IMG/VR virus record: IMGVR_UViG_3300021168_000013
DNA length: 64,000 nt
Direction: 5' to 3' (one strand)
Source of the DNA: a virus
Position 1 is the stretch's first letter. Every line of letters begins with the position of its first letter. Made by a program: the position numbers and the translations under genes. The notes below the pieces were generated by a model. It was not told the origin of the DNA. It did no database searches and saw only the letters and a list, made by a program, of their open reading frames with translations. Of the stretch, positions 1,876-51,354 are shown in pieces.

Positions 1876-2640
1876 ATGAGCACGAATATTGGGATATATA
1901 AAATAACAAACAAACAAAATGGAAAGTTCTATATCGGTTCATCTAAACAGATTGATCGTCGATGGTGGGAACACAAAAATGATTTAATTAAAAATAAACA
2001 TCATAATATTAAACTACAACATGCGTGGAATTATTATGGGTCAGATGCGTTCGATTTTATAATAATTGAAGAGGTAACTGCTGATAAATTATTAGAGCGG
2101 GAAGATTTCTATTTAAACACATTTAGACCATATATACGAGATATAGGTTATAATATAAATGATGTCGCTTCCGGTGGTGATTGGTTCACTAATCATCCAG
2201 ATAAAGAAAAATATAGATTAATATATTCACAAATGTCTTCGGGTAAGAACAATGCAATGTATGGCAAATCTCATTCAGAAGAATCGATTAATTTACAGAA
2301 GACACAGGCAATTGGTAGATATACATTGGAATGGTTTAAGAAGAAATGTGGTGATATTGATGGTGAGATTAAATATAAAGAACGAAACGAGAAATTAAAA
2401 AATAGGAAAATGAATTATAGTTACGACAATGGTTTGACTGGAACAACTAGAGAACCAATGTCACAAGATAACAAAAATAAAATATCAAGTAATAAAGCTA
2501 GATTAAAGTTATTAAAGCCTCAAATATTTGATGATATTAGGAGTGAATTATATACAATCAGTTTTTTGGCTGATAAGTATAAAACATCAACCACAATGAT
2601 AAAATACTATAAAAAACAAATTAAAAAGGGTATTGTTTAA
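1876..2640 (+). CDS. Free-standing GIY-YIG homing endonuclease with NUMOD3-like DNA-binding motif
   Basis: N-terminal IGIYKITNKQNGKFYIGSS...RWWEH...LQHAWNYYG...E; later MYGKSHSEES (NUMOD3-like). Confidence 0.9.
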   Translation: MSTNIGIYKITNKQNGKFYIGSSKQIDRRWWEHKNDLIKNKHHNIKLQHAWNYYGSDAFDFIIIEEVTADKLLEREDFYLNTFRPYIRDIGYNINDVASGGDWFTNHPDKEKYRLIYSQMSSGKNNAMYGKSHSEESINLQKTQAIGRYTLEWFKKKCGDIDGEIKYKERNEKLKNRKMNYSYDNGLTGTTREPMSQDNKNKISSNKARLKLLKPQIFDDIRSELYTISFLADKYKTSTTMIKYYKKQIKKGIV

Positions 2641-2661: not shown

Positions 2662-3876
2662 ATGCCACAACAACAATTTAACAATTCATTGATTAGATGG
2701 CCGGGCAGCGGCAGTGCAGTAAACCTATCAACTGTGCCATATGGATACTACCTTAACGAATCTGGCGTCAATACGTCTAGTTTGGGGTCATTTGAGTACG
2801 ATTGCTATACATCAGCGATTTGGGCGGGCAAACGACTAGGCTATCCTATTGTTGATATAGAAATGATAGATGTTAATTTTTACAGTTGTTTTGAAGAAGC
2901 CGTCAACGAATATGGTTCTCAAGTAAATCAATTTAACATAATAAACAATCTATTAAATCTTCAAGGAATGAACATCAGTCAGAATCCTAACATTAGTGGA
3001 TTAAACGTTGTTGGTTCAGGATTGCCACAAATAGTTAGAATTGCCCAAGATTATGGTAGTTTAATTGGGGTTGGTGGTAATGTTGATGTGAAAAGAGTTC
3101 CTGTCCCAGTTAATCCTGCTCAACAAGAATATGATCTACAAGCATTAATCGGTGACGTTTATGAATCGGGGAGTGCAATTGAATTACGTAGATTGTTCCA
3201 TACAGACTTTTCTCCGGCATTTGCTCGTATTTATGACCCATTTTCCATGACGGGAATGAGTTATAGTAACGTATTGAATGAAATGGGTTTTGCTGGATAT
3301 TCTCCTGCAACACAATTCTTGATGACTCCGTTATTTGAGGACTTATTAAGAGGACAAGCTATTCAATTTAATGATTTAATAAGAAAGAGTGCCTTTACAT
3401 TTGAGTTGGTCAACAATAAATTAAGGTTATTCCCTATCCCAACATATCCCATGAATATATATGTTGATTACGTGGTAGTAAGTGATTATGTGAGTAGTGC
3501 TAATTTGTTTACATCTGGAAGCAATTATGCCGTAGTTAGTGATTACAGTAATGTGCCTTATCAAGAAGTTAAATATAGCAAATTAAACTCAGTTGCTAGA
3601 CAGTGGATTAGAAAGTTTTTCTTGGCATTATGTAAAGAGAATCTTGGAAGAATATTACAGAAATACAGTACCGTTCCTATTCCGGGAGGTGAAGTAACCT
3701 TAGATGGTAGTGAATTAAGAAGTGAAGCTACTGCTGAAAAAGAAGTTTTAATGTCACAATTGAGAGAAAATTTGGAAGCCAGTGGGCGTTCAGCATTAAT
3801 GGATGCAAAAGCCAACGAAGCTGAAAAGATGCAGGATACCTTAAAAATGGTTCCTCTTGGGATCTATATATATTAA
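2662..3876 (+). CDS. Neck / head-completion protein, T4 gp13-like
   Basis: RLGYPIVDIEM...FEEAVNEY and C-terminal WIRKFFLALCKENLGRILQKYSTVPIPGGEVTLDGSELRSEA; position after capsid. Confidence 0.8.
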   Translation: MPQQQFNNSLIRWPGSGSAVNLSTVPYGYYLNESGVNTSSLGSFEYDCYTSAIWAGKRLGYPIVDIEMIDVNFYSCFEEAVNEYGSQVNQFNIINNLLNLQGMNISQNPNISGLNVVGSGLPQIVRIAQDYGSLIGVGGNVDVKRVPVPVNPAQQEYDLQALIGDVYESGSAIELRRLFHTDFSPAFARIYDPFSMTGMSYSNVLNEMGFAGYSPATQFLMTPLFEDLLRGQAIQFNDLIRKSAFTFELVNNKLRLFPIPTYPMNIYVDYVVVSDYVSSANLFTSGSNYAVVSDYSNVPYQEVKYSKLNSVARQWIRKFFLALCKENLGRILQKYSTVPIPGGEVTLDGSELRSEATAEKEVLMSQLRENLEASGRSALMDAKANEAEKMQDTLKMVPLGIYIY

Positions 3877-43719: not shown

Positions 43720-46635
43720 ATGATTATAACAGATAAATTTGCAAACAAATATAAAAATAAACAGCCTAATTGGGGATTTAATGGACTAGGATATATAGTA
43801 TACAAAAGAACTTATTCAAGATTGAAAGAAAACGGGGAAACCGAGGAATGGTATGAAACGGTACAAAGATGTATAAATGGAGCACAAGATATTGGTGCGG
43901 ATTATACACAAGAGGAAGCGGAAAAATTATATGATTTAATCTTCAATTTTAAATGTAATTTTGCTGGAAGAATGTTATGGCAACTTGGTACACCTACCGT
44001 TAAACGTTGGGGGGCCAATAGTTTACTTAACTGTCTACGAGGAACAACAAGAGTACTAACCAGACAAGGATGGAAAGAAATTCATACATTGGTTGATAAA
44101 ACAGTTGAAATTGTTACTAAAAATGGAAAATGGGTAAATGCTCCATTTAAATCTTATGGAAAACAAAATTTAATGAAAGTTGTTTTCGAAGATCGGTATG
44201 GTAATATTGAGGAAGTATACGCCACTAAAAATCACAGATGGTTTTATTTGGATAAGAATCATAATTCTATAGAAACCACAACAGAAGAATTGCAGACGGG
44301 AGTTAAAATACCAGTAATACGAGGAAAAAATTCATCAAAAGGATTAAGCCCACAAGGAATCCAACATGGTTTGGTTTTTGGTGATGGATCATGTAACGGA
44401 TATGAATCCTTCGTTGATTTGATAGATAATACTTATGATGAATGTGCTAATTATTTTAATTTGAATAGGATAAGTTGGACAAATCCCGATAATAGCAGAC
44501 ATGTTAGATATGGTGGAATGCCAAATTACTATAAATCCCTTCCGAATATCAATGAAAATAAACAATATTTGTCTGGATTCTTGGCGGGATGGATAGCCGC
44601 TGATGGAAGTGTGAACAAAAGTAATGGTAGGATTAGATTATTTAATCGTGATAAAGAAGTTTTAATGTTTGCTAAAGATGTTGCTGCTGTGTTGGGATAT
44701 AGAACATCGGAGCCATATTTAGAAAGGGATCATAATCCGTTTGATTTGGATGATGAATCTTGTGAATTATGGTCGATAACTTTTTATACATCCGATAACC
44801 CACATCATTTGATTATAAGAAAAGATCATCTATCTAAATTAAATGATTTTGATAGGGATTATAATAATTGGACAAAGGTTATAAAGGTTGAAACTACGGA
44901 TTTAAATGAAGAAGTTTTCTGTGCCGAAGTTCCCGAAACACATTCTTTTGTTATTCAAGGTAATATTTTAACAGGAAACTGTTGGGCAGTCGCTATGAGA
45001 GAACCAAAAGCCTTTTTATTCTTATTTGAGAATTTAATGCTTGGTGGTGGAGTGGGATATAGCATTCGTCGTGAAGATGTTCATGAATTACCAAAGATTA
45101 AAGTGGATGTAACAGTATCACATCAATATACAAAGGATGCCGATTTGATAGTTCCTGATAGTAGAGAAGGATGGGTTAAATTACTGGAAAATGTTTTAAA
45201 TGCGTATTATGTAACTGGCAAATCATTCTCTTATTCAACCATATTGATAAGAGGAGCAGGAGAGCCAATTCACGGTTTTGGTGGTAAGGCAAGTGGTCCA
45301 GCAATCTTGGTAGAGGGTATATCAAAAATTGGTTCTATCTTTAAATCCAGAGAGGGAAAGAAACTACGTAGTATTGATGTGCTTGATATCTGTAACATTA
45401 TTGGAAGTGTAGTCGTTGCTGGTAATGTCAGAAGAAGTGCTGAAATTGCATTAGGTGATCCCGATGATATTCTTTATCTCAGAGCAAAAAATTGGAGCAG
45501 TGGCAATGTTCCAAATTGGAGAGGTATGAGTAACAATACTATATATGCCGATGATTTTGATCATATTATGAATGAAATCTGGGAAAATGGATACATATTG
45601 GATAAAGAAACAGGAATGGCCAAAGGTGAACCTTATGGATTTTTCAATCTTCCATTATCTCAAAAGTTTGGTAGAATTAAAGATGGCCCAATTAAAGATA
45701 ATAAGATGTACCCAACAAATGTTGATAATTGTGAAATGACAAATCCCTGTGCCGAGATTAGTCTAAGCAATTATGAATGTTGTAATCTTTGTGAATTATA
45801 TCTTAATAATATAGAAAACAAGGAAGAATTGATTGACTGTGCCAAATTGTTGTATAAGACACAAAAGGCTATATCCGCACTTCCATTTATTCACGAAGAA
45901 ACCAATAAGATTGTTCATAAGAATATGAGACTTGGTTTAGGTGTCACAGGAATCTGTCAATCACTTGACAAGGTTGATTGGTTGGATGATTGTTATGTTG
46001 CATTGAGAAAACTTGACAAACAATGGAGTAAGGAAAAAGGTCATCCTGAGAGTATCAAGCTTACCACAATTAAACCTAGTGGAACATTGAGTCTATTAGG
46101 TGGAGCAACACCCGGTGTGCATCCAGCTTATAGTCAGTATTATTTTCGAACGGTTCGCATGGCAAGCAGTGATAAATTAGTACAGATTTGTAAGGATTTG
46201 GGATACCATACTGAATATTTATTGAATTTTGATGGTAGTGAGGATAGAGGCACCGTTGTAGTATATTTTCCATGCGAAACTCCATCTAATGCAATCTTGG
46301 CAAAGGATATGGATGTTATCAAACAATTGGATATGGTAAAGAAGTTACAGAACATATGGAGTGATAATGCCGTAAGTGTTACAGCATATTACAAGGAAGC
46401 CGAACTTCCTGCGTTAAAAAACTGGTTATCAGATAATTATAAGAACCATGTAAAGAGTGTAAGTTTTCTTTTGCATAAAAAACATGGATTTAAACAGGCT
46501 CCTTATCAAGAAATCGATAAAGAAACATATGATAAAGCCAAAAGTCTAGTAAAATCACTTAATAACATAAAAATTGGTGGAGGAGAAATTATTCAAGGGT
46601 TAGAATGTGAAGGTGGAGCCTGTCCTATTCGATAA
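43720..46635 (+). CDS. nrdJ: Class II (AdoCbl-dependent, monomeric RTPR-type) ribonucleotide reductase with intein
   Basis: KRTYSR, SLLN|CW, GNVRRSAEI, TNPCAEI, ECCNL, TTIKPSGT, C-terminal ECEGGACPIR. Confidence 0.95.
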   Translation: MIITDKFANKYKNKQPNWGFNGLGYIVYKRTYSRLKENGETEEWYETVQRCINGAQDIGADYTQEEAEKLYDLIFNFKCNFAGRMLWQLGTPTVKRWGANSLLNCLRGTTRVLTRQGWKEIHTLVDKTVEIVTKNGKWVNAPFKSYGKQNLMKVVFEDRYGNIEEVYATKNHRWFYLDKNHNSIETTTEELQTGVKIPVIRGKNSSKGLSPQGIQHGLVFGDGSCNGYESFVDLIDNTYDECANYFNLNRISWTNPDNSRHVRYGGMPNYYKSLPNINENKQYLSGFLAGWIAADGSVNKSNGRIRLFNRDKEVLMFAKDVAAVLGYRTSEPYLERDHNPFDLDDESCELWSITFYTSDNPHHLIIRKDHLSKLNDFDRDYNNWTKVIKVETTDLNEEVFCAEVPETHSFVIQGNILTGNCWAVAMREPKAFLFLFENLMLGGGVGYSIRREDVHELPKIKVDVTVSHQYTKDADLIVPDSREGWVKLLENVLNAYYVTGKSFSYSTILIRGAGEPIHGFGGKASGPAILVEGISKIGSIFKSREGKKLRSIDVLDICNIIGSVVVAGNVRRSAEIALGDPDDILYLRAKNWSSGNVPNWRGMSNNTIYADDFDHIMNEIWENGYILDKETGMAKGEPYGFFNLPLSQKFGRIKDGPIKDNKMYPTNVDNCEMTNPCAEISLSNYECCNLCELYLNNIENKEELIDCAKLLYKTQKAISALPFIHEETNKIVHKNMRLGLGVTGICQSLDKVDWLDDCYVALRKLDKQWSKEKGHPESIKLTTIKPSGTLSLLGGATPGVHPAYSQYYFRTVRMASSDKLVQICKDLGYHTEYLLNFDGSEDRGTVVVYFPCETPSNAILAKDMDVIKQLDMVKKLQNIWSDNAVSVTAYYKEAELPALKNWLSDNYKNHVKSVSFLLHKKHGFKQAPYQEIDKETYDKAKSLVKSLNNIKIGGGEIIQGLECEGGACPIR
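44032..44979 (+). mobile_element. Intein with LAGLIDADG homing endonuclease (316 aa, codons 105-420)
   Basis: Starts CLRGTTRVLTRQG, ends VFCAEVPETHSFVIQGNILTGN followed by Cys; GLVFGDGS and GFLAGWIAADGS motifs. Confidence 0.95.
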
Positions 46636-46700: not shown

Positions 46701-47327
46701 ATGAATATTACCCCTGATGTATTGCAACATACTCAGCAAGTTACGGAATATATTGCCGCCATAGTCACAGCAGCAGTCACCATTCTTGCTTTTTTAGTGA
46801 AGTATGGACCCAAAATCATCAACCCAATAATTGCGCACATTAAAGAGCGAATTAAAATGGTTGAGACGTTAAAGATTATCCATGCCGAATTAACTCCTAA
46901 TCACGGCACATCCTTAAAAGACAAAATCACCAATATGCAGAGGGAATTGGTGGTTAACACAGAACTAACTCAAGAAAACACTGACATGTTAAAAGTTTTG
47001 AGCGCGAGGCAACAATGGATACTTGACATGCAAAAGGCTCCTATATTTGAGTCAGACTCCGAAGGATATTGTACATGGGTTAATGATGCATATGCTGAAT
47101 TGGTAGGTAGGGATAAAGATGATATATTGGGTAATGGATGGAAGAACTTAATACATGAGGATGATAGATATAGGGTAATAGCTGAGTGGGATAGGGCTGT
47201 AACAGAAGAAAGAAGTAGTCAATCCACATATAGAATCATGTCTAAAAACGGAAGAGTTCATGAAGTTGAATGTTATGCTACTAAACATAAAAATAACGGA
47301 TATTCAGGTAGGCTTAAACTAAAATAA
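46701..47327 (+). CDS. Membrane-anchored PAS-domain protein
   Basis: TM IAAIVTAAVTILAFLV, coiled coil with PNHGTSLKD, then FESDSEGYCTWVNDAY..LVG....ILGNGWKNLIHEDD (PAS_3-like). Confidence 0.82.
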   Translation: MNITPDVLQHTQQVTEYIAAIVTAAVTILAFLVKYGPKIINPIIAHIKERIKMVETLKIIHAELTPNHGTSLKDKITNMQRELVVNTELTQENTDMLKVLSARQQWILDMQKAPIFESDSEGYCTWVNDAYAELVGRDKDDILGNGWKNLIHEDDRYRVIAEWDRAVTEERSSQSTYRIMSKNGRVHEVECYATKHKNNGYSGRLKLK

Positions 47328-47364: not shown

Positions 47365-48069
47365 ATGAACAAGGCACAGTTACAGGGATTAATTAAAGAA
47401 GTAATGGAAGATATGTCAAAACAAGCTTTAAAAGCCAAACTTAAAAAGCTTGTTGTTGAGTCTATGGAAGAGATCAAGTATGAAAAGGAAGATACTGTTG
47501 TCGAAGACATGGAAGCCATCGAAAAAATTGCCAAAGAATATAATAAAGATGCAACTGTTAAATTAGGTGATGACAAAAATTATTGGATTAACGAAACTGT
47601 ACCGCATAAATTTCACATCAGACCACAAAGCGAAGGCGTGTATGACGTACAATATTTTAAAGATGACACGGACAGAACCAAAAAATTGAATTTAAAATTT
47701 GAAGAATTAAAGAAATTTATCAAAGACACATTATCAAACAAAGACCTCAATTACGTCAAAACCGCATATAACAAAACCGCAGGAAACAGTGAAGATCAAA
47801 TTGAAAAAGGCGAAATCCCAACACATCACAAATTCGTAAAGAAAGAAGTTAAAGACACAAAGAACGATAATAAAGATTATACTGAACCAATGGTTAAAAA
47901 CGAAAAAGACTTACAAGATAAACCAATGTATGCCGTTGAAAAATTTGAAAAACAATCCGATCATTCAATCAAAGGCACAAAACCAGATTACACATATCCA
48001 AAACAAAAAGACAAAAAACTCTTAATCAAATTAAAAGCGTACAGAAACAAAACAAGAAAAAAAGACTAA
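47365..48069 (+). CDS. Highly charged hypothetical late protein
   Basis: 234 aa, Lys/Glu/Asp-rich; late-type motif 4 nt upstream. Confidence 0.7.
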   Translation: MNKAQLQGLIKEVMEDMSKQALKAKLKKLVVESMEEIKYEKEDTVVEDMEAIEKIAKEYNKDATVKLGDDKNYWINETVPHKFHIRPQSEGVYDVQYFKDDTDRTKKLNLKFEELKKFIKDTLSNKDLNYVKTAYNKTAGNSEDQIEKGEIPTHHKFVKKEVKDTKNDNKDYTEPMVKNEKDLQDKPMYAVEKFEKQSDHSIKGTKPDYTYPKQKDKKLLIKLKAYRNKTRKKD

Positions 48070-48085
48070 TATACCCTTTAACCCG

Positions 48086-48117
48086 AAGGCTGAATGTAAA
48101 AAATTCAGCCTTTTTTT
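48086..48117 (+). terminator. Rho-independent terminator
   Basis: aaggctgaat-gtaaaaa-attcagcctt followed by a T-run. Confidence 0.82.
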
Positions 48118-48126
48118 ATTTTATGC

Positions 48127-48155
48127 TTGACTTTGTATATATTATAATATAGAAT
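48127..48155 (+). promoter_or_regulatory. Sigma70-type promoter giving a probably leaderless AAA transcript
   Basis: TTGACT-N17-TAGAAT with ATG 7 nt after the -10 box. Confidence 0.6.
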
Positions 48156-48161
48156 ATTAGT

Positions 48162-48470
48162 ATGACGTTACAGCAGAAAAATACTGTCCCAAATATAGAC
48201 ATCCAAACCCAATTGGATAATTGCGTAAAACTGAAGCCAGATGACTTGGTTATCAGTGATATTAAGTGGAAATACTTGGTTCGCAGTGTTTTACGAGGAA
48301 AGAATGTTTTATTGACTGGCCCTACTGGATGTGCTAAAACGTTGGCAGCAGTTTCTTCCAGAGAAGCACTATATTCTGAGTATACCGAAGAAATGGATGA
48401 TACCCAATTATCTTTGTTAAAATTGGATAATAATATAAAAATTATAAAAATGGAAAAAATTGAGGGTTGA
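48162..48470 (+). CDS. MoxR/CbbQ-type AAA+ ATPase, N-terminal half (Walker A) with 31-aa C-terminal tail
   Basis: KWKYLVRSVLRGKNVLLTGPTGCAKTLAA; ATPase similarity stops at REALY. Confidence 0.82.
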   Translation: MTLQQKNTVPNIDIQTQLDNCVKLKPDDLVISDIKWKYLVRSVLRGKNVLLTGPTGCAKTLAAVSSREALYSEYTEEMDDTQLSLLKLDNNIKIIKMEKIEG

Positions 48471-48528
48471 GAATAAATTATAAAAAAGCACTAAGTGGAA
48501 ATTATAATTTTATAAAAATAATAAATAA

Positions 48529-49284
48529 ATGAAACATAAAATAACATATAGAAAATATAGACCATTATTTATATTTAATTGTGGTAGTTCACAAGATGCG
48601 CGATCAACATTAATCGGAAATACATCTTTCAAAAAAGATGAAGGAACCGTATATAATCCGTCTGAATTTGTCAAAGCTATACAAACTGAAAATGCCATAA
48701 TTGTATTGGATGAATTGAGTAGAGGAAATCATGATTTTTTTAATATTATTATGTCAGTATTGGACCCAATTCAGCGTTATTTGAGACTTGATGAACGTGA
48801 TAATAGTGTATTGGTCAAAGTGGCAAATAATGTCACTTTTATGGCTACAGCTAATATTGGTAATGGATATACGGCAACCAGAGTCATGGATAAAGCATTG
48901 CTTGACAGATTCTCGGTTAAAATAGAAATGTCACCTTTGGATCAAGAAGAAGAATATGAGTTAATGATCCGAAAGTTTAAGATTACAGATGATGACATCA
49001 AGTTTACATTGAAAAGTATAGTGGCGATTGCTGCTCACACAAGACAACAGATTAAGATAGAAGATGGTAAATTAACCAATTTCTTATCAACGCGTAGTGT
49101 GGTTGAAATGACTGAATTATTATTGGATAAGTTCACACTCGAAGAAATAGCCGAAAATGCCATTTATCCAAATTTTCCCACAGAAGGTGGTGCCGATAGT
49201 GAACGAGTTTATATAAAACAACTTGTTCAAAAATATGTGTCCGTTGAACCAGACCCCGAAGATGCTAATATTGCTCCATTTTAA
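48529..49284 (+). CDS. MoxR/CbbQ-type AAA+ ATPase, C-terminal half (Walker B, sensor, Arg finger) with 10-aa N-terminal head
   Basis: RPLFIFNCGSSQDARSTLIG, IVLDELSR, FMATANIG, MDKALLDRF, STRSVVE. Confidence 0.85.
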   Translation: MKHKITYRKYRPLFIFNCGSSQDARSTLIGNTSFKKDEGTVYNPSEFVKAIQTENAIIVLDELSRGNHDFFNIIMSVLDPIQRYLRLDERDNSVLVKVANNVTFMATANIGNGYTATRVMDKALLDRFSVKIEMSPLDQEEEYELMIRKFKITDDDIKFTLKSIVAIAAHTRQQIKIEDGKLTNFLSTRSVVEMTELLLDKFTLEEIAENAIYPNFPTEGGADSERVYIKQLVQKYVSVEPDPEDANIAPF

Positions 49285-49286
49285 AT

Positions 49287-51320
49287 ATGAGTAATGTCTC
49301 ACATAGTGATTATTGGTCAAATGACATTGAGGAATTCAATACTAGGTTGACCGATAATAATCCACTATTGGATTTTAATATGATTCGATTAGCCAGTGCT
49401 AGACGAGCAATATCTAATTTTGTGAGGATTTTGACAAACAAAAGCATTCCAGTAACCTTTAATGGTAAGGAAAGTTTTACGGATGGTGAAAATGTAGTAT
49501 TGGGTGCCAGTATCATAGGCAAGGAAGATTTTGACTCGGCAGTGGGATTGGCATTACATGAAGGCAGTCATATATTATTAACTGATTTTTCATTAGTTAG
49601 AACAATTTGGATGAAAGTTCCACGAGAAATATATGATATAACCGATGCAAAAAACATCAGTAAAGATGTCGTTGGAACTACAGTTAAATATATATGGAAT
49701 ATCATAGAAGATCGTTTCATAGACAATTACATTTATAGGAACGCACCCGGCTATCGGGGATATTATATTGCATTGTATAAAAAATACTTTCATAGTGATT
49801 CCGTGAATGAAATGTTGCGGTCAAAAATGTATAGGGAACCAAGTATTGAGGCATACAAACGTCGTATTTGTAATTTAATGAATATCAATACTGATTTGAA
49901 AGCATTGCCTGAATTACAATTAATATCACAAATGATAGATATTAAGAATATTAACAGACTGGCTAATCCTATTGATCGAATTAATTTGGCATATGAAGTA
50001 AGTCTAGTAATATTTCGTAACGTGTGTGCTGATCCAATTGATCAGTCTGCACCAGACCCTACCGCAGTTCCGCTGCCCGTCTCTGGTTCTGCCAAAGATG
50101 ATCCCGCAACTGTTATAGGGGGTACAGAAACATCAGCCATTAGTTCTCCACCAGAAAAACAAAACGATATAGAATTTGATTTAGGAAATACCACCGATAT
50201 GTCTAAATCAAAATTAACCAAGATTAAGAATGCCTTGGATAAACAAGATGATTTCTTGAATGGAACCACAAAAAAGAAAAAGATATCACCATATCAAAAA
50301 ACGATGTTGGACGCGATTGATAAGAGTGGAATGACAATTGAAAGAGTTGGTAAAGAGGCAATCGAAGGACAAGCTATATCAGGAATTGATTGTGTTGTGG
50401 TCAGGAATTTAACAAAAGAACTGCTTTTATCGGATGGATTCCCATTAAAATCCAATAGTTACAGTAACAAGCCTTCTGATGAAATGGAAGCAGCTATTAA
50501 AACTGGTATCATAATGGGAAATTTGTTAGGTAAGAAACTTTTGTTGCGAAATGAAAACAATGTAGCCAAGTACATGAGAAGAAGTGAAGGAAACATTGAT
50601 TCTCGTATTATCGCTGAACTTGGATTTAACAACGACAGAATATTTTATACAAATCAAACGGAGAAGTATAATGATGCGTATATACACATTTGTATAGATG
50701 CCAGTGCAAGTATGGGTGGAATGAAATGGTATAAAACTATGTCTACCGTGGTAGCCATATGTAAAGCATGTAGTATGATTGAGAATATCAGGGTGGAAGT
50801 AAGTTTTAGGACTACTATATCAACAAAACGTTGTACCCAAAACCCATATATTATATTTGCATACGATAGTGCCAAGGATAAATTCTCAAAAATCTCCAAT
50901 CTATTTAAATATATTGAACCAAATGGATTCACTCCCGAAGGATTATTGTTCGAAATAGTCACCAAGATATGTCAAGAGAAGTTGACTGATCAGAATTGTT
51001 ATTTTTTGAATTTTAGTGATGGGGAACCATGTCTTCCATATGAAGCTGAAGATGGCAAAATATGTCACTATACTGGTGAGAAGGCAACCCTTCATACTCG
51101 AAAACAGGTAAACAGTATTAAAGACAAAGGATATAGAGTATTAAGTTATTTTATACAATCAAATGGAACCAGACATGATAGGCAAGTGTCATTAGAGAAC
51201 AGACTGGCCTATAAAAACTTTAAGACTATGTATGGTAAAGACGCTTCATTTATTGACGTTAAGAACGTAAATGCCGTGGCCAATACCATTAATGAATTGT
51301 TTCTAAAAAAAGTTGAATAA
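49287..51320 (+). CDS. vWA-domain protein with N-terminal HExxH metallopeptidase-like domain (MoxR partner)
   Basis: SFTDGE...GLALHEGSH, WNIIEDRFID, MIDAS motif ICIDASASM, GFTPE, FSDGEP. Confidence 0.88.
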   Translation: MSNVSHSDYWSNDIEEFNTRLTDNNPLLDFNMIRLASARRAISNFVRILTNKSIPVTFNGKESFTDGENVVLGASIIGKEDFDSAVGLALHEGSHILLTDFSLVRTIWMKVPREIYDITDAKNISKDVVGTTVKYIWNIIEDRFIDNYIYRNAPGYRGYYIALYKKYFHSDSVNEMLRSKMYREPSIEAYKRRICNLMNINTDLKALPELQLISQMIDIKNINRLANPIDRINLAYEVSLVIFRNVCADPIDQSAPDPTAVPLPVSGSAKDDPATVIGGTETSAISSPPEKQNDIEFDLGNTTDMSKSKLTKIKNALDKQDDFLNGTTKKKKISPYQKTMLDAIDKSGMTIERVGKEAIEGQAISGIDCVVVRNLTKELLLSDGFPLKSNSYSNKPSDEMEAAIKTGIIMGNLLGKKLLLRNENNVAKYMRRSEGNIDSRIIAELGFNNDRIFYTNQTEKYNDAYIHICIDASASMGGMKWYKTMSTVVAICKACSMIENIRVEVSFRTTISTKRCTQNPYIIFAYDSAKDKFSKISNLFKYIEPNGFTPEGLLFEIVTKICQEKLTDQNCYFLNFSDGEPCLPYEAEDGKICHYTGEKATLHTRKQVNSIKDKGYRVLSYFIQSNGTRHDRQVSLENRLAYKNFKTMYGKDASFIDVKNVNAVANTINELFLKKVE

Positions 51321-51325
51321 TTTAA

Positions 51326-51354
51326 TTGACTTTATATCAAATATGAGATATAAT
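51326..51354 (+). promoter_or_regulatory. Sigma70-type promoter
   Basis: TTGACT-N17-TATAAT. Confidence 0.7.

What the first reader, a model, noticed from the sequence alone, without database searches (positions are those of the whole stretch)
48162..49284. MoxR AAA+ ATPase split in two by a 184-nt insert whose coding ends look like two halves of one mini-domain
SEEN: Walker A (GPTGCAKT) is in ORF 48162-48470 and Walker B/sensor/Arg finger are in ORF 48529-49284, in different frames. ATPase-like sequence stops at REAL-Y (TAT 48372-74) and resumes at Y-RPLFIFNCG (TAT 48556-58). Deleting the 184 nt between the matching TAT codons (shared atat) gives a seamless 312-aa ALYRPLFIFN protein. The insert adds a 31-aa tail (SEYTEEMDDTQLSLLKLDNNIKIIKMEKIEG) to the N-half and a 10-aa head (MKHKITYRKY) to the C-half. 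The halves are separated by a 58-nt AT-rich spacer with no endonuclease or transposase. Joined, head plus tail read as a 41-aa strand-strand-helix-strand peptide with a basic strand (KHKITYRK) next to an acidic strand (SEYTEE). The in-frame join follows automatically from the shared codon; the fold-like patterning does not. KNOWN: MoxR ATPases are normally single chains partnered with vWA proteins (intact partner at 49287), and split phage genes usually involve a homing endonuclease or a split intein. INFERENCE: the tails are a natural non-covalent tag/catcher pair that re-associates the halves by beta-strand complementation, or the insert is an integrated or excisable minicircle acting as a switch.
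Basis: partly seen in the sequence, partly recalled or inferred. Interest (0 to 1): 0.85.

Follow-up and report, generated by a model that had tools for sequence, protein, structure and literature searches.

The report
Endonuclease-split phage ATPase, endonuclease since lost
A phage ATPase gene is encoded in two pieces because a selfish DNA-cutting (homing endonuclease) gene once sat between them; that gene has since been deleted, but the pieces keep matching end-peptides that are predicted to fold into one small domain and probably hold the enzyme together.

Summary
A NorQ/CbbQ-type MoxR ATPase is encoded by two ORFs (48162-48470, 48529-49284) in different frames, 58 nt apart, and four independent contigs show the same layout.

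It holds the last 18 codons of a SegE-like GIY-YIG homing endonuclease gene (HEG). At least ten related phage loci carry that HEG intact (250-266 aa) between the same two halves. A second, independent HEG-less relic exists (L024).

The 31-aa tail and 10-aa head occur in at least 20 clusters of split relatives and evolve under purifying selection. In three rare single-chain relatives they form one contiguous insert. AlphaFold2 models it as a strand-helix-strand-strand mini-domain (block-mean pLDDT about 83-97), and the split falls in its last hairpin turn.

Insert-bearing genes are polyphyletic on the ATPase tree (AU p = 2e-8). The 70 aa next to the insert share a separate history, as expected from homing with co-conversion.

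This is a new variant of the "genes-in-pieces with assembly tails" arrangement shown experimentally for Aeromonas phage Aeh1 NrdA (PMC3045599). This scan had already noted an NrdA case of that kind on other DNA. No evidence supports an intron, intein, ribosomal bypass or excisable switch.

The parts
48085..48113 (+). Intrinsic terminator of the upstream gene
   Evidence: 11-bp stem followed by a T run.
48127..48155 (+). Sigma-70-like promoter of the operon (N-half, C-half, partner)
   Evidence: TTGACT-N17-TAGAAT. A TTGACT-N17-TATAxT box lies at the same place in L003 and L004. No terminator-like site lies between the two halves; the scan does list two short weak terminator-like sites further on, at 49746-49758 (+, inside the partner gene) and 49254-49239 (-). 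The next promoter-like site of this strength is at 51326.
48162..48371 (+). N-half, ATPase core (aa 1-70): N-terminal helices, strand beta1, Walker A, helix alpha1
   Evidence: Aligns to residues 1-70 of intact homologues.
48372..48467 (+). Tail of the N-half (aa 71-102), predicted strand-helix-strand; net charge -4
   Evidence: Homologous tails of 27-37 aa occur in 20 clusters of split N-halves. The equivalent part of P0014 (E73-80, H82-90, E94-102) has block-mean pLDDT 94-97. pN 0.14-0.42 against pS 0.68-0.82.
48476..48532 (+). Relic of the GIY-YIG homing endonuclease gene: its last 18 codons plus the stop, with TGA overlapping the ATG of the C-half
   Evidence: NYKKALSGNYNFIKIINK* is the best of 127,894 six-frame positions against the C-end of the L008 HEG (score 53, next best 35). 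DNA alignment A1. The 5' bases 48465-48481 resemble the N-half/HEG intergenic sequence of L004.
48529..48558 (+). Head of the C-half (aa 1-10), predicted beta-strand; net charge +4
   Evidence: Conserved as M-K-(K)-Y-K-V/I-T-Y-K/R-K-Y in P0090, P0109, L012, L013, L015, L018 and L024. pN 0-0.14. Corresponds to strand E105-113 of the P0014 model.
48568..48780 (+). Exon stretch next to the insert with a separate history (probable co-conversion tract)
   Evidence: 73-74% identical to the HEG-bearing P0090 and P0109, against 52-53% for the rest of the gene; insert-less relatives show the reverse. On these columns the insert-bearing rows form one clade (SH-aLRT 98).
48781..49284 (+). Rest of the C-half: sensor 1, Arg finger, lid domain, sensor 2 (Walker B lies just upstream, at about 48700-48720, inside the preceding stretch)
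   Evidence: Pfam AAA_5. Motifs match the family consensus. This part groups with insert-less relatives such as P0005 (78% identity).
49287..51320 (+). 677-aa partner protein, vWA-like by motif only
   Evidence: Always adjacent to the ATPase in relatives. A DxSxS (MIDAS-like) motif is conserved, but there is no Pfam, NCBIfam or PDB sequence hit; only phrog_1576, of unknown function.

Best explanation
The window carries a NorQ/CbbQ-type MoxR AAA+ ATPase gene in two pieces. The arrangement descends from an allele in which a free-standing SegE-like GIY-YIG homing endonuclease gene (HEG) sat between the pieces. In this phage lineage about 0.7 kb of the HEG was deleted. What remains is its last 18 codons, whose stop overlaps the start codon of the C-half. 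(Shown.) Both halves are transcribed from one promoter and translated separately. (Inferred from intact ORFs, conserved motifs, the conserved ATG and the absence of a terminator between the halves.) The N-half ends in a 31-aa strand-helix-strand tail and the C-half begins with a 10-aa strand. Together they make a small strand-helix-strand-strand domain at the alpha1-to-beta2 connection of the AAA+ core, and the break lies in its last hairpin turn. (Predicted from single-chain relatives.) The two chains most likely co-fold: beta1 and alpha1 of the N-half slot into the sheet of the C-half, and the tail/head sheet acts as an extra clamp. This would make the interruption phenotypically neutral, as the tails of Aeh1 NrdA-a/NrdA-b do. 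(Inferred.) The unit tail-HEG-head behaves as a mobile cassette that moves between divergent ATPase genes by homing and drags about 70 codons of downstream exon with it. (Supported by phylogenetic incongruence.)
For: HEG relic: (top of 127,894 positions, score 53 against 35). An intact HEG of 250-266 aa lies between homologous halves in L004/5, L006/7, L008, L012, L013/14, the P0124 contig, L021, L022, L027, L030 and L036. It matches NUMOD3 (43.4 bits), SegE_GIY-YIG (28.9 bits) and phrog_314 homing endonuclease (2e-38). An independent second relic exists: L024 has a 34-nt spacer keeping GEYEFIKVIPK* with the same ATGA overlap, and its ATPase is 72% identical to L006 but only 56% to the window. 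Function is retained: the layout is on 4 contigs; the motifs are intact; 20 clusters of split N-halves carry tails; tail+head pN is 0.10-0.34 against saturated pS of 0.6-0.8, similar to the enzyme core. Mini-domain: the fused relatives P0003, P0004 and P0014 were modelled for P0014 (mean pLDDT 87, blocks covering the insert 89-97) and P0003 (mean 89, blocks covering the insert 83-94). Both give the same strand-helix-strand-strand unit, with a loop of 2 or 9 residues at the split point. Mobility: the insert-bearing rows are one clade on the 70 columns next to the insert (SH-aLRT 98), need 4-6 changes on the distal 153 columns, and their monophyly is rejected there (AU p = 0.002 with 38 rows, 2.3e-8 with 52 rows). 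Family: Foldseek places the model nearest NorQ and CbbQ (E about 1e-15); the sequence profile finds midasin, CobS and NorQ. Experimental precedent for the mechanism: Crona et al. 2011, PMC3045599.
Against: No direct evidence that the two chains associate or that the ATPase is active; no co-fold of two chains could be run. HEG-less splits are rare (the window and L024 against at least 13 HEG-bearing loci), so the state could be short-lived. Tail charge is not uniformly acidic across the family. A tail-only profile recovers 2 of the 18 more distant tails above all 3,600 shuffles and a third (P0135) level with the best shuffle; several more are borderline. No clear co-conversion signal is seen on the 5' side. 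The distribution also fits an old split domain whose gap is simply a landing pad for HEGs, because two unrelated GIY-YIG families occupy it in opposite orientations.
Confidence: 0.75

Rival explanations
1. The mini-domain is an ordinary, older insertion domain of one ATPase subfamily, with a job of its own such as contacting the partner. HEGs merely landed in its tolerant hairpin loop, so the tail and head are not adaptors brought or shaped by the mobile element. The single-chain forms with the insert would then be the ancestral state.
For: Single-chain forms with a well-folded insert exist. Two unrelated GIY-YIG families, in opposite orientations, use the same gap, which suggests the gap predates at least one of them. 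The similarity between the P0003 linker and the HEG C-end is not significant, so there is no proof that the fused forms are re-fusions.
Against: Among the 150 best 50%-identity clusters there are 20 split-with-tail clusters, about 75 intact insert-less clusters and none intact with the insert. The only three fused forms are close relatives of the window. None of the 72 intact genes among the 80 metagenome loci carries the insert. P0014 keeps a Met exactly where the split forms have their start codon. The insert is polyphyletic on the ATPase tree.
Confidence: 0.3
2. The gene is a decaying pseudogene: the stop and spacer inactivate the ATPase and the peptides at the break are noise.
For: The halves are in different frames with stops in all frames between them. 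The HEG-less split state is rare.
Against: Both ORFs are full length with all catalytic motifs. The same break with the same tail and head occurs in at least 20 diverged clusters. pN is well below pS in tail and head. The layout is on 4 contigs. A second lineage reached the same HEG-less state and is also intact.
Confidence: 0.06
3. One chain is restored at the RNA or ribosome level: a small group I intron, or T4 gene-60-style bypassing between the matching TAT codons.
For: Matching TAT codons flank the 184 nt. The phage carries other selfish elements.
Against: No Rfam family matches even at E up to 10. None of the five equivalent 184-nt excisions ends in G (read). No stop follows the take-off codon. 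The 'insert' is translated and conserved as protein in split and fused relatives. In relatives the gap is 0.8-0.9 kb and holds a whole gene, yet the C-half keeps the same ATG.
Confidence: 0.03
4. The tail and head are the halves of a split intein that ligates the two ATPase pieces (a 'fractured gene' in the sense of Dassa et al. 2009).
For: The layout N-piece / free-standing endonuclease gene / C-piece is that of fractured genes (PMC2677866, listed). The same phage has an intein in its ribonucleotide reductase.
Against: Tail plus head total only 41 aa. There is no Cys/Ser at the N-junction and no His-Asn followed by Cys/Ser/Thr at the C-junction. Neither half hits an intein family in Pfam, whereas the reductase intein does. 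In fused relatives the segment is modelled as a small sheet-plus-helix unit, not a Hint fold.
Confidence: 0.02
5. The 184 nt is an integrated or excisable DNA minicircle that acts as a genetic switch.
For: A 4-nt direct repeat (atat) lies at both ends.
Against: No longer direct or inverted terminal repeats. No recombinase is nearby. Four contigs all carry the insert. The repeat is not conserved in relatives. The origin of the sequence is explained by the HEG relic and the conserved tail and head.
Confidence: 0.01

Closest known systems
Aeromonas phage Aeh1 nrdA-a / mobE / nrdA-b (Friedrich et al. 2007; Crona et al. 2011, PMC3045599)
   Same: An essential-type enzyme gene is cut inside a domain by a free-standing homing endonuclease gene. 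The halves are translated separately from one operon. Unique C- and N-terminal tails that are absent from unsplit homologues sit at the break, carry opposite charges, and were shown there to be required for activity.
   Different: The host gene here is a MoxR-type AAA+ ATPase and the endonuclease is GIY-YIG, not HNH. The tails are predicted to form one discrete folded mini-domain. The arrangement is spread over many diverged phage lineages and involves two endonuclease families. In the window the endonuclease gene has been deleted. Single-chain forms that keep the tails as an insert exist. Nothing has been tested biochemically.
T4 gene 39 / mobA / gene 60 split topoisomerase
   Same: A phage enzyme split by a mobile endonuclease insertion, with tail-like extensions on the products (discussed in PMC3045599).
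   Different: T4 gene 60 also needs 50-nt ribosomal bypassing; there is no sign of bypassing here.
Fractured genes with split inteins and a free-standing endonuclease gene (Dassa et al. 2009, PMC2677866)
   Same: The same gene order: N-piece, endonuclease gene, C-piece. The pieces carry matching extra peptides.
   Different: Those peptides are split-intein halves that ligate the pieces covalently. Here the peptides total 41 aa and lack all intein motifs.
NorQ/NorD, CbbQ/CbbO and CobS/CobT: MoxR-type AAA+ ATPases with vWA partners
   Same: Closest folds (NorQ 9qh4/9qhd, CbbQ 6l1q/5c3c) and sequence relatives (midasin, CobS, NorQ), with a large partner gene adjacent.
   Different: All of these are single chains without the insert between alpha1 and beta2. 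The phage partner is vWA-like only by a DxSxS motif. The cellular target is unknown.

Membership tests
MoxR-type AAA+ ATPase (Pfam AAA_5; NorQ/CbbQ/CobS branch) | Walker A, Walker B, sensor 1, Arg finger and sensor 2 in AAA+ order | tested here: met
   GPTGCAKT is in the N-half; the hhhhDE motif, the ATAN sensor 1, the DRF Arg finger and the STRS sensor 2 are in the C-half, and all align with the family consensus.
MoxR-type AAA+ ATPase (Pfam AAA_5; NorQ/CbbQ/CobS branch) | Profile match above the curated threshold | tested here: met
   C-half matches AAA_5 at 43.4 bits (cut-off 22). The fused relatives also hit CbbQ_C: P0014 at 24.3 bits (cut-off 20.6), P0003 at 19.2 bits, just below it.
MoxR-type AAA+ ATPase (Pfam AAA_5; NorQ/CbbQ/CobS branch) | Fold closest to solved MoxR-class ATPases | tested here: met
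   The model of the fused relative P0014 is nearest NorQ (E 8e-16, TM 0.83 by target) and CbbQ. This was tested on a relative, not on the two window chains.
MoxR-type AAA+ ATPase (Pfam AAA_5; NorQ/CbbQ/CobS branch) | Adjacent vWA-domain partner | tested here: inconclusive
   A conserved 613-753-aa neighbour with a DxSxS motif is always adjacent, but no vWA profile or PDB sequence hit was found.
Gene fragmented by a homing endonuclease, with assembly tails (Aeh1 NrdA type) | Gene is a single chain in most relatives and is broken at an internal, conserved position here | tested here: met
   About 100 of the top 120 relatives, and 72 of 80 metagenome loci, are intact and insert-less. The break lies between alpha1 and beta2.
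Gene fragmented by a homing endonuclease, with assembly tails (Aeh1 NrdA type) | Free-standing homing endonuclease gene between the pieces | tested here: met
   Intact in at least 10 related loci. In the window only the last 18 codons remain.
Gene fragmented by a homing endonuclease, with assembly tails (Aeh1 NrdA type) | Tails at the break that unsplit homologues lack | tested here: met
   Insert-less homologues go straight from alpha1 to beta2, with 20-23 residues from Walker A to TQDAR; the split forms add 27-37 aa and about 10 aa. Caveat: three single-chain forms keep the tails as an insert.
Gene fragmented by a homing endonuclease, with assembly tails (Aeh1 NrdA type) | Tails needed for assembly or activity | not testable with these tools
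   Only indirect support: purifying selection and a confident joint fold in fused relatives.
Split intein / fractured gene | N-intein starting with Cys/Ser; C-intein ending His-Asn followed by Cys/Ser/Thr; Hint-domain blocks | tested here: not met
   The tail starts Tyr-Ser-Glu and the head ends Lys-Tyr followed by Arg. The two total 41 aa, with no intein Pfam hit.
Group I intron | Covariance-model match; 5' exon ending in U and intron ending in G at a junction that restores the frame | tested here: not met
   No Rfam hit at E up to 10. None of the seamless junctions ends in G. The segment is conserved as protein.
Programmed translational bypass (T4 gene 60 type) | Matched take-off and landing codons, a stop right after take-off, and a coding gap of about 50 nt | tested here: not met
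   The codons match (TAT/TAT), but TCT follows the take-off codon and the gap is 184 nt. In relatives the gap is 0.8-0.9 kb with the same C-half start.
GIY-YIG homing endonuclease (SegE-like, with NUMOD3) | GIY-YIG catalytic domain and NUMOD3 DNA-binding motif | tested here: not met
   Present in the relatives' genes (NUMOD3 43.4 bits, SegE_GIY-YIG 28.9 bits, phrog_314 2e-38). In the window only the C-terminal 18 codons survive, so no endonuclease is encoded at this site.

The most novel reading that the evidence does not exclude
Tail-HEG-head is a self-contained mobile cassette that carries its own antidote. This is a portable, split strand-helix-strand-strand clamp of about 41 aa that re-joins the interrupted host protein non-covalently. 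It does at the protein-assembly level what introns do for RNA and inteins for protein. It can move between divergent ATPase genes, can be used by two unrelated endonuclease families, and can outlive the endonuclease, leaving either a permanent two-piece enzyme (the window, L024) or, after re-fusion, a new inserted domain (P0003, P0004, P0014).
Probability: 0.35. Interest if true: 0.75.

Novelty: new variant of a known kind. Interest (0 to 1): 0.55.

Why it matters
The tail mechanism has been tested experimentally in only one case, Aeh1 NrdA, and its authors predicted that similar tails were being overlooked elsewhere. This locus is a second enzyme family with much richer natural variation. Public data hold HEG-bearing, HEG-relic, re-fused or unsplit-with-insert, and naive insert-less alleles side by side. 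The life cycle of such an element (invasion, co-conversion, endonuclease loss, fixation of a split or of a new domain) can therefore be reconstructed. The predicted 31+10-aa split mini-domain is also a candidate natural complementation tag. It further shows how a selfish element can leave a new folded insert in a protein family.

Tried and rejected
- Rfam scans of the region at E up to 10 and of the whole window at gathering scores found nothing relevant.
- Nucleotide search of the phage collection found no match. The phage has no close sequenced relative, and no whole genome is held for the window.
- I worked through group I intron junction geometry by hand. No seamless junction ends in G; the alternatives REAL|PLF and REAL-KY-RPLF are possible on paper but have no support.
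- A word-based search with the insert region of P0014 returned only P0014 itself, so it says nothing about how common fused forms are.
- The linker of fused P0003 looked similar to the C-end of the L006 endonuclease, which would mark it as a re-fusion scar. The similarity is no better than chance, so the direction fused-to-split or split-to-fused stays open.
- The N-terminal exon shows no clear co-conversion signal.
- A tail-only HMM had limited power: two distant tails scored above all shuffles.
- The partner protein could not be confirmed as vWA by Pfam, NCBIfam or PDB sequence search.
- Literature searches for a split MoxR or CobS gene in phages found nothing.
Full report
**1.

- ORF 48162-48470 encodes 102 aa with the Walker A motif. 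ORF 48529-49284 encodes 251 aa with Walker B, sensor 1, the Arg finger and sensor 2. They are in different frames and 58 nt apart.
- Pfam calls the C-half AAA_5 (43.4 bits, cut-off 22). The N-half gets only a weak P-loop match.
- Intact homologues show that ATPase sequence breaks off at ...REAL-Y and resumes at Y-RPLF. Microcystis phage Mel-JY01 and an uncultured 484-kb phage have exactly one residue between the equivalent positions. A 69%-identical, fully syntenic IMG/VR relative (L003) has a few more.
- The same gene layout (102 aa, 58-nt gap, 251 aa, 677 aa) is recorded on four contigs, one of 111 kb from a different sample. Assembly error is therefore excluded.

**2. The region is not an intron, intein, bypass or switch**

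- Rfam finds nothing in the region at E up to 10, and nothing in the whole window at gathering scores.
- None of the five equivalent 184-nt excisions ends in G.
- There are no intein motifs or Pfam intein hits in either half, while the intein in the neighbouring ribonucleotide reductase is detected.
- There are no terminal repeats beyond the 4-nt atat. That repeat falls in two conserved Tyr/Phe codons of the peptide, and relatives use other codons there.

**3. The spacer is an endonuclease relic**

- Searching the large protein collection with each half and looking up contexts showed other split copies of this ATPase with the same kind of tail and head.
- In those copies a 250-266-aa gene lies between the halves. 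It matches NUMOD3 (43.4 bits), SegE_GIY-YIG (28.9 bits) and the homing endonuclease family phrog_314 (2e-38).
- IMG/VR and metagenome scans added more such loci. In all there are at least ten distinct loci with this forward-strand endonuclease gene (L004/5, L006/7, L008, L012, L013/14, the P0124 contig, L021, L022, L027, L030, L036).
- The window's spacer, read in the third frame, gives NYKKALSGNYNFIKIINK followed by a stop. Against the C-terminal 18 residues of the L008 endonuclease this is the best of 127,894 six-frame positions in the window (score 53, next best 35). The DNA aligns as well.
- Its TGA overlaps the ATG of the C-half, as the endonuclease stop does or nearly does in the relatives.
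- The first bases after the N-half stop resemble the N-half/endonuclease intergenic sequence of L004.
- The window therefore descends from an endonuclease-bearing allele that lost about 0.7 kb of the endonuclease gene.
- A second, independent loss exists. L024 has a 34-nt spacer that keeps GEYEFIKVIPK plus a stop, again overlapping the C-half ATG. Its ATPase is 72% identical to the endonuclease-bearing L006 but only 56% to the window.

**4. Tail and head are one folded unit**

- Three single-chain relatives (P0003, P0004, P0014; 351-361 aa) carry tail and head as one in-frame insert between helix alpha1 and strand beta2.
- AlphaFold2 models used an alignment that includes split halves, fused forms and insert-less forms. 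They give mean pLDDT 87 for P0014 and 89 for P0003.
- In both models the insert is strand-helix-strand-strand. The 10-residue blocks covering it average pLDDT 89-97 in P0014 and 83-94 in P0003, the lowest value being at the linker. The insert runs straight into core strand beta2.
- The position that is broken in the window is the turn of the last hairpin, which is 2 residues long in P0014 and 9 in P0003.
- The model is closest to NorQ and CbbQ. The sequence profile finds midasin, CobS and NorQ.

**5. The split state is old, common and selected**

- Among the 150 best 50%-identity clusters matching the N-half, 20 are short proteins that end in a 27-37-aa tail right after alpha1. About 75 are intact with the short insert-less spacing, and none is intact with the insert.
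- Heads are strongly conserved.
- Nonsynonymous divergence of tail plus head (pN 0.10-0.34) is like that of the ATPase core, while synonymous sites are saturated.
- In the window the tail has net charge -4 and the head +4. Heads are basic in six of the seven loci examined (+4 or +5; +1 in L016). Tails are usually, but not always, acidic.
- One promoter (48127-48155) precedes the N-half and no terminator-like site lies between the two halves.

**6. The insert moves**

- On the first 70 columns after the insert, the six insert-bearing sequences form one clade (SH-aLRT 98).
- On the remaining 153 columns they scatter among insert-less relatives, and their monophyly is rejected (AU p = 0.002; with 52 rows, 6 changes and p = 2.3e-8).
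- The window's proximal stretch is 73-74% identical to the endonuclease-bearing P0090 and P0109, but its distal part is only 52-53% identical. For insert-less relatives the pattern is reversed.
- This is the signature expected from homing with co-conversion of flanking exon, here on the 3' side only.

**7. Open points**

- Other split lineages (L015, L016/17, L018/19) carry a different GIY-YIG gene on the opposite strand in the same gap. These genes are related to each other (48% identity between L015 and L016; partial match to L018) but not to the forward type. One lineage (L020) has yet another gene after the N-half.
- So the gap may predate some of its occupants.
- Whether the mini-domain came with a mobile element or existed first cannot be decided. 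The rarity and narrow distribution of the single-chain insert forms, and the Met that P0014 retains at the split forms' start position, favour re-fusion. The apparent similarity of the P0003 linker to an endonuclease C-end is not significant.

**8. Comparison with known cases**

- The mechanism I propose is non-covalent reassembly helped by tails at the break. It was demonstrated for Aeh1 NrdA-a/NrdA-b, split by mobE (PMC3045599). That paper predicted that similar tails exist elsewhere.
- This scan had already noted an NrdA split by a GIY-YIG gene, with tails, on other DNA.
- I found no paper describing a split MoxR or CobS-type ATPase in phages.
- The new elements here are the enzyme family, a tail pair predicted to be a discrete fold, use of the same gap by two endonuclease families, and natural alleles that show endonuclease loss both with the split retained and, possibly, with re-fusion.

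**Verdict**

The "no endonuclease" premise and the minicircle idea are wrong. I rate this a new variant of a known kind, of moderate interest.

Noticed in passing
window 43720-46635: The class II (B12-dependent) ribonucleotide reductase gene carries an intein with a LAGLIDADG endonuclease domain (Pfam Intein_splicing, LAGLIDADG_3, RNR_Alpha, RNR-II_ins_dom). It is a second selfish element 1.5 kb upstream of the split ATPase.
   Followed up: partly
window 1876-2640: A free-standing 254-aa GIY-YIG endonuclease gene (TIGR01453 'group I intron endonuclease', 5e-28 for the 1894-2421 portion scanned) lies between a capsid-like gene (25-1770) and the next structural gene (2662-3876). Its middle motif (GGD.F.NHPDKE) resembles the reverse-strand endonucleases of L015 and L018. 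No Rfam intron surrounds it.
   Followed up: partly
window 48467-48532: The endonuclease relic can be read as a 21-codon mini-ORF. It starts at a TTG that overlaps the N-half stop (TTGA) and ends at a TGA that overlaps the C-half start (ATGA). This could chain translation of the two halves by termination-reinitiation.
   Followed up: no
L015 2748-3413 (-), L016 3048-3692 (-), L018 975-1724 (-): A second GIY-YIG family, unrelated to the forward type, sits on the opposite strand in the same gap of split ATPase genes of very different phages. In L015 and L016 the partner gene is upstream of the ATPase, and L016 lies in a T4-like context.
   Followed up: partly
L020 795-950: In the P0151 lineage the gene after the tailed N-half is neither the C-half nor a recognisable GIY-YIG gene. 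The contig ends after 52 codons.
   Followed up: no
L001 2041-3723 (Microcystis phage Mel-JY01): The intact homologue is 560 aa, with an N-terminal extension of about 240 aa of unknown nature before the ATPase. Many relatives of about 400 aa carry a shorter extension of 80-100 aa.
   Followed up: no
window 46701-47327: A membrane-anchored PAS-domain protein and a Lys-rich 234-aa protein (47365-48069) are conserved just upstream of the ATPase operon in L003, L009 and L011, and in the other contigs of this phage.
   Followed up: no
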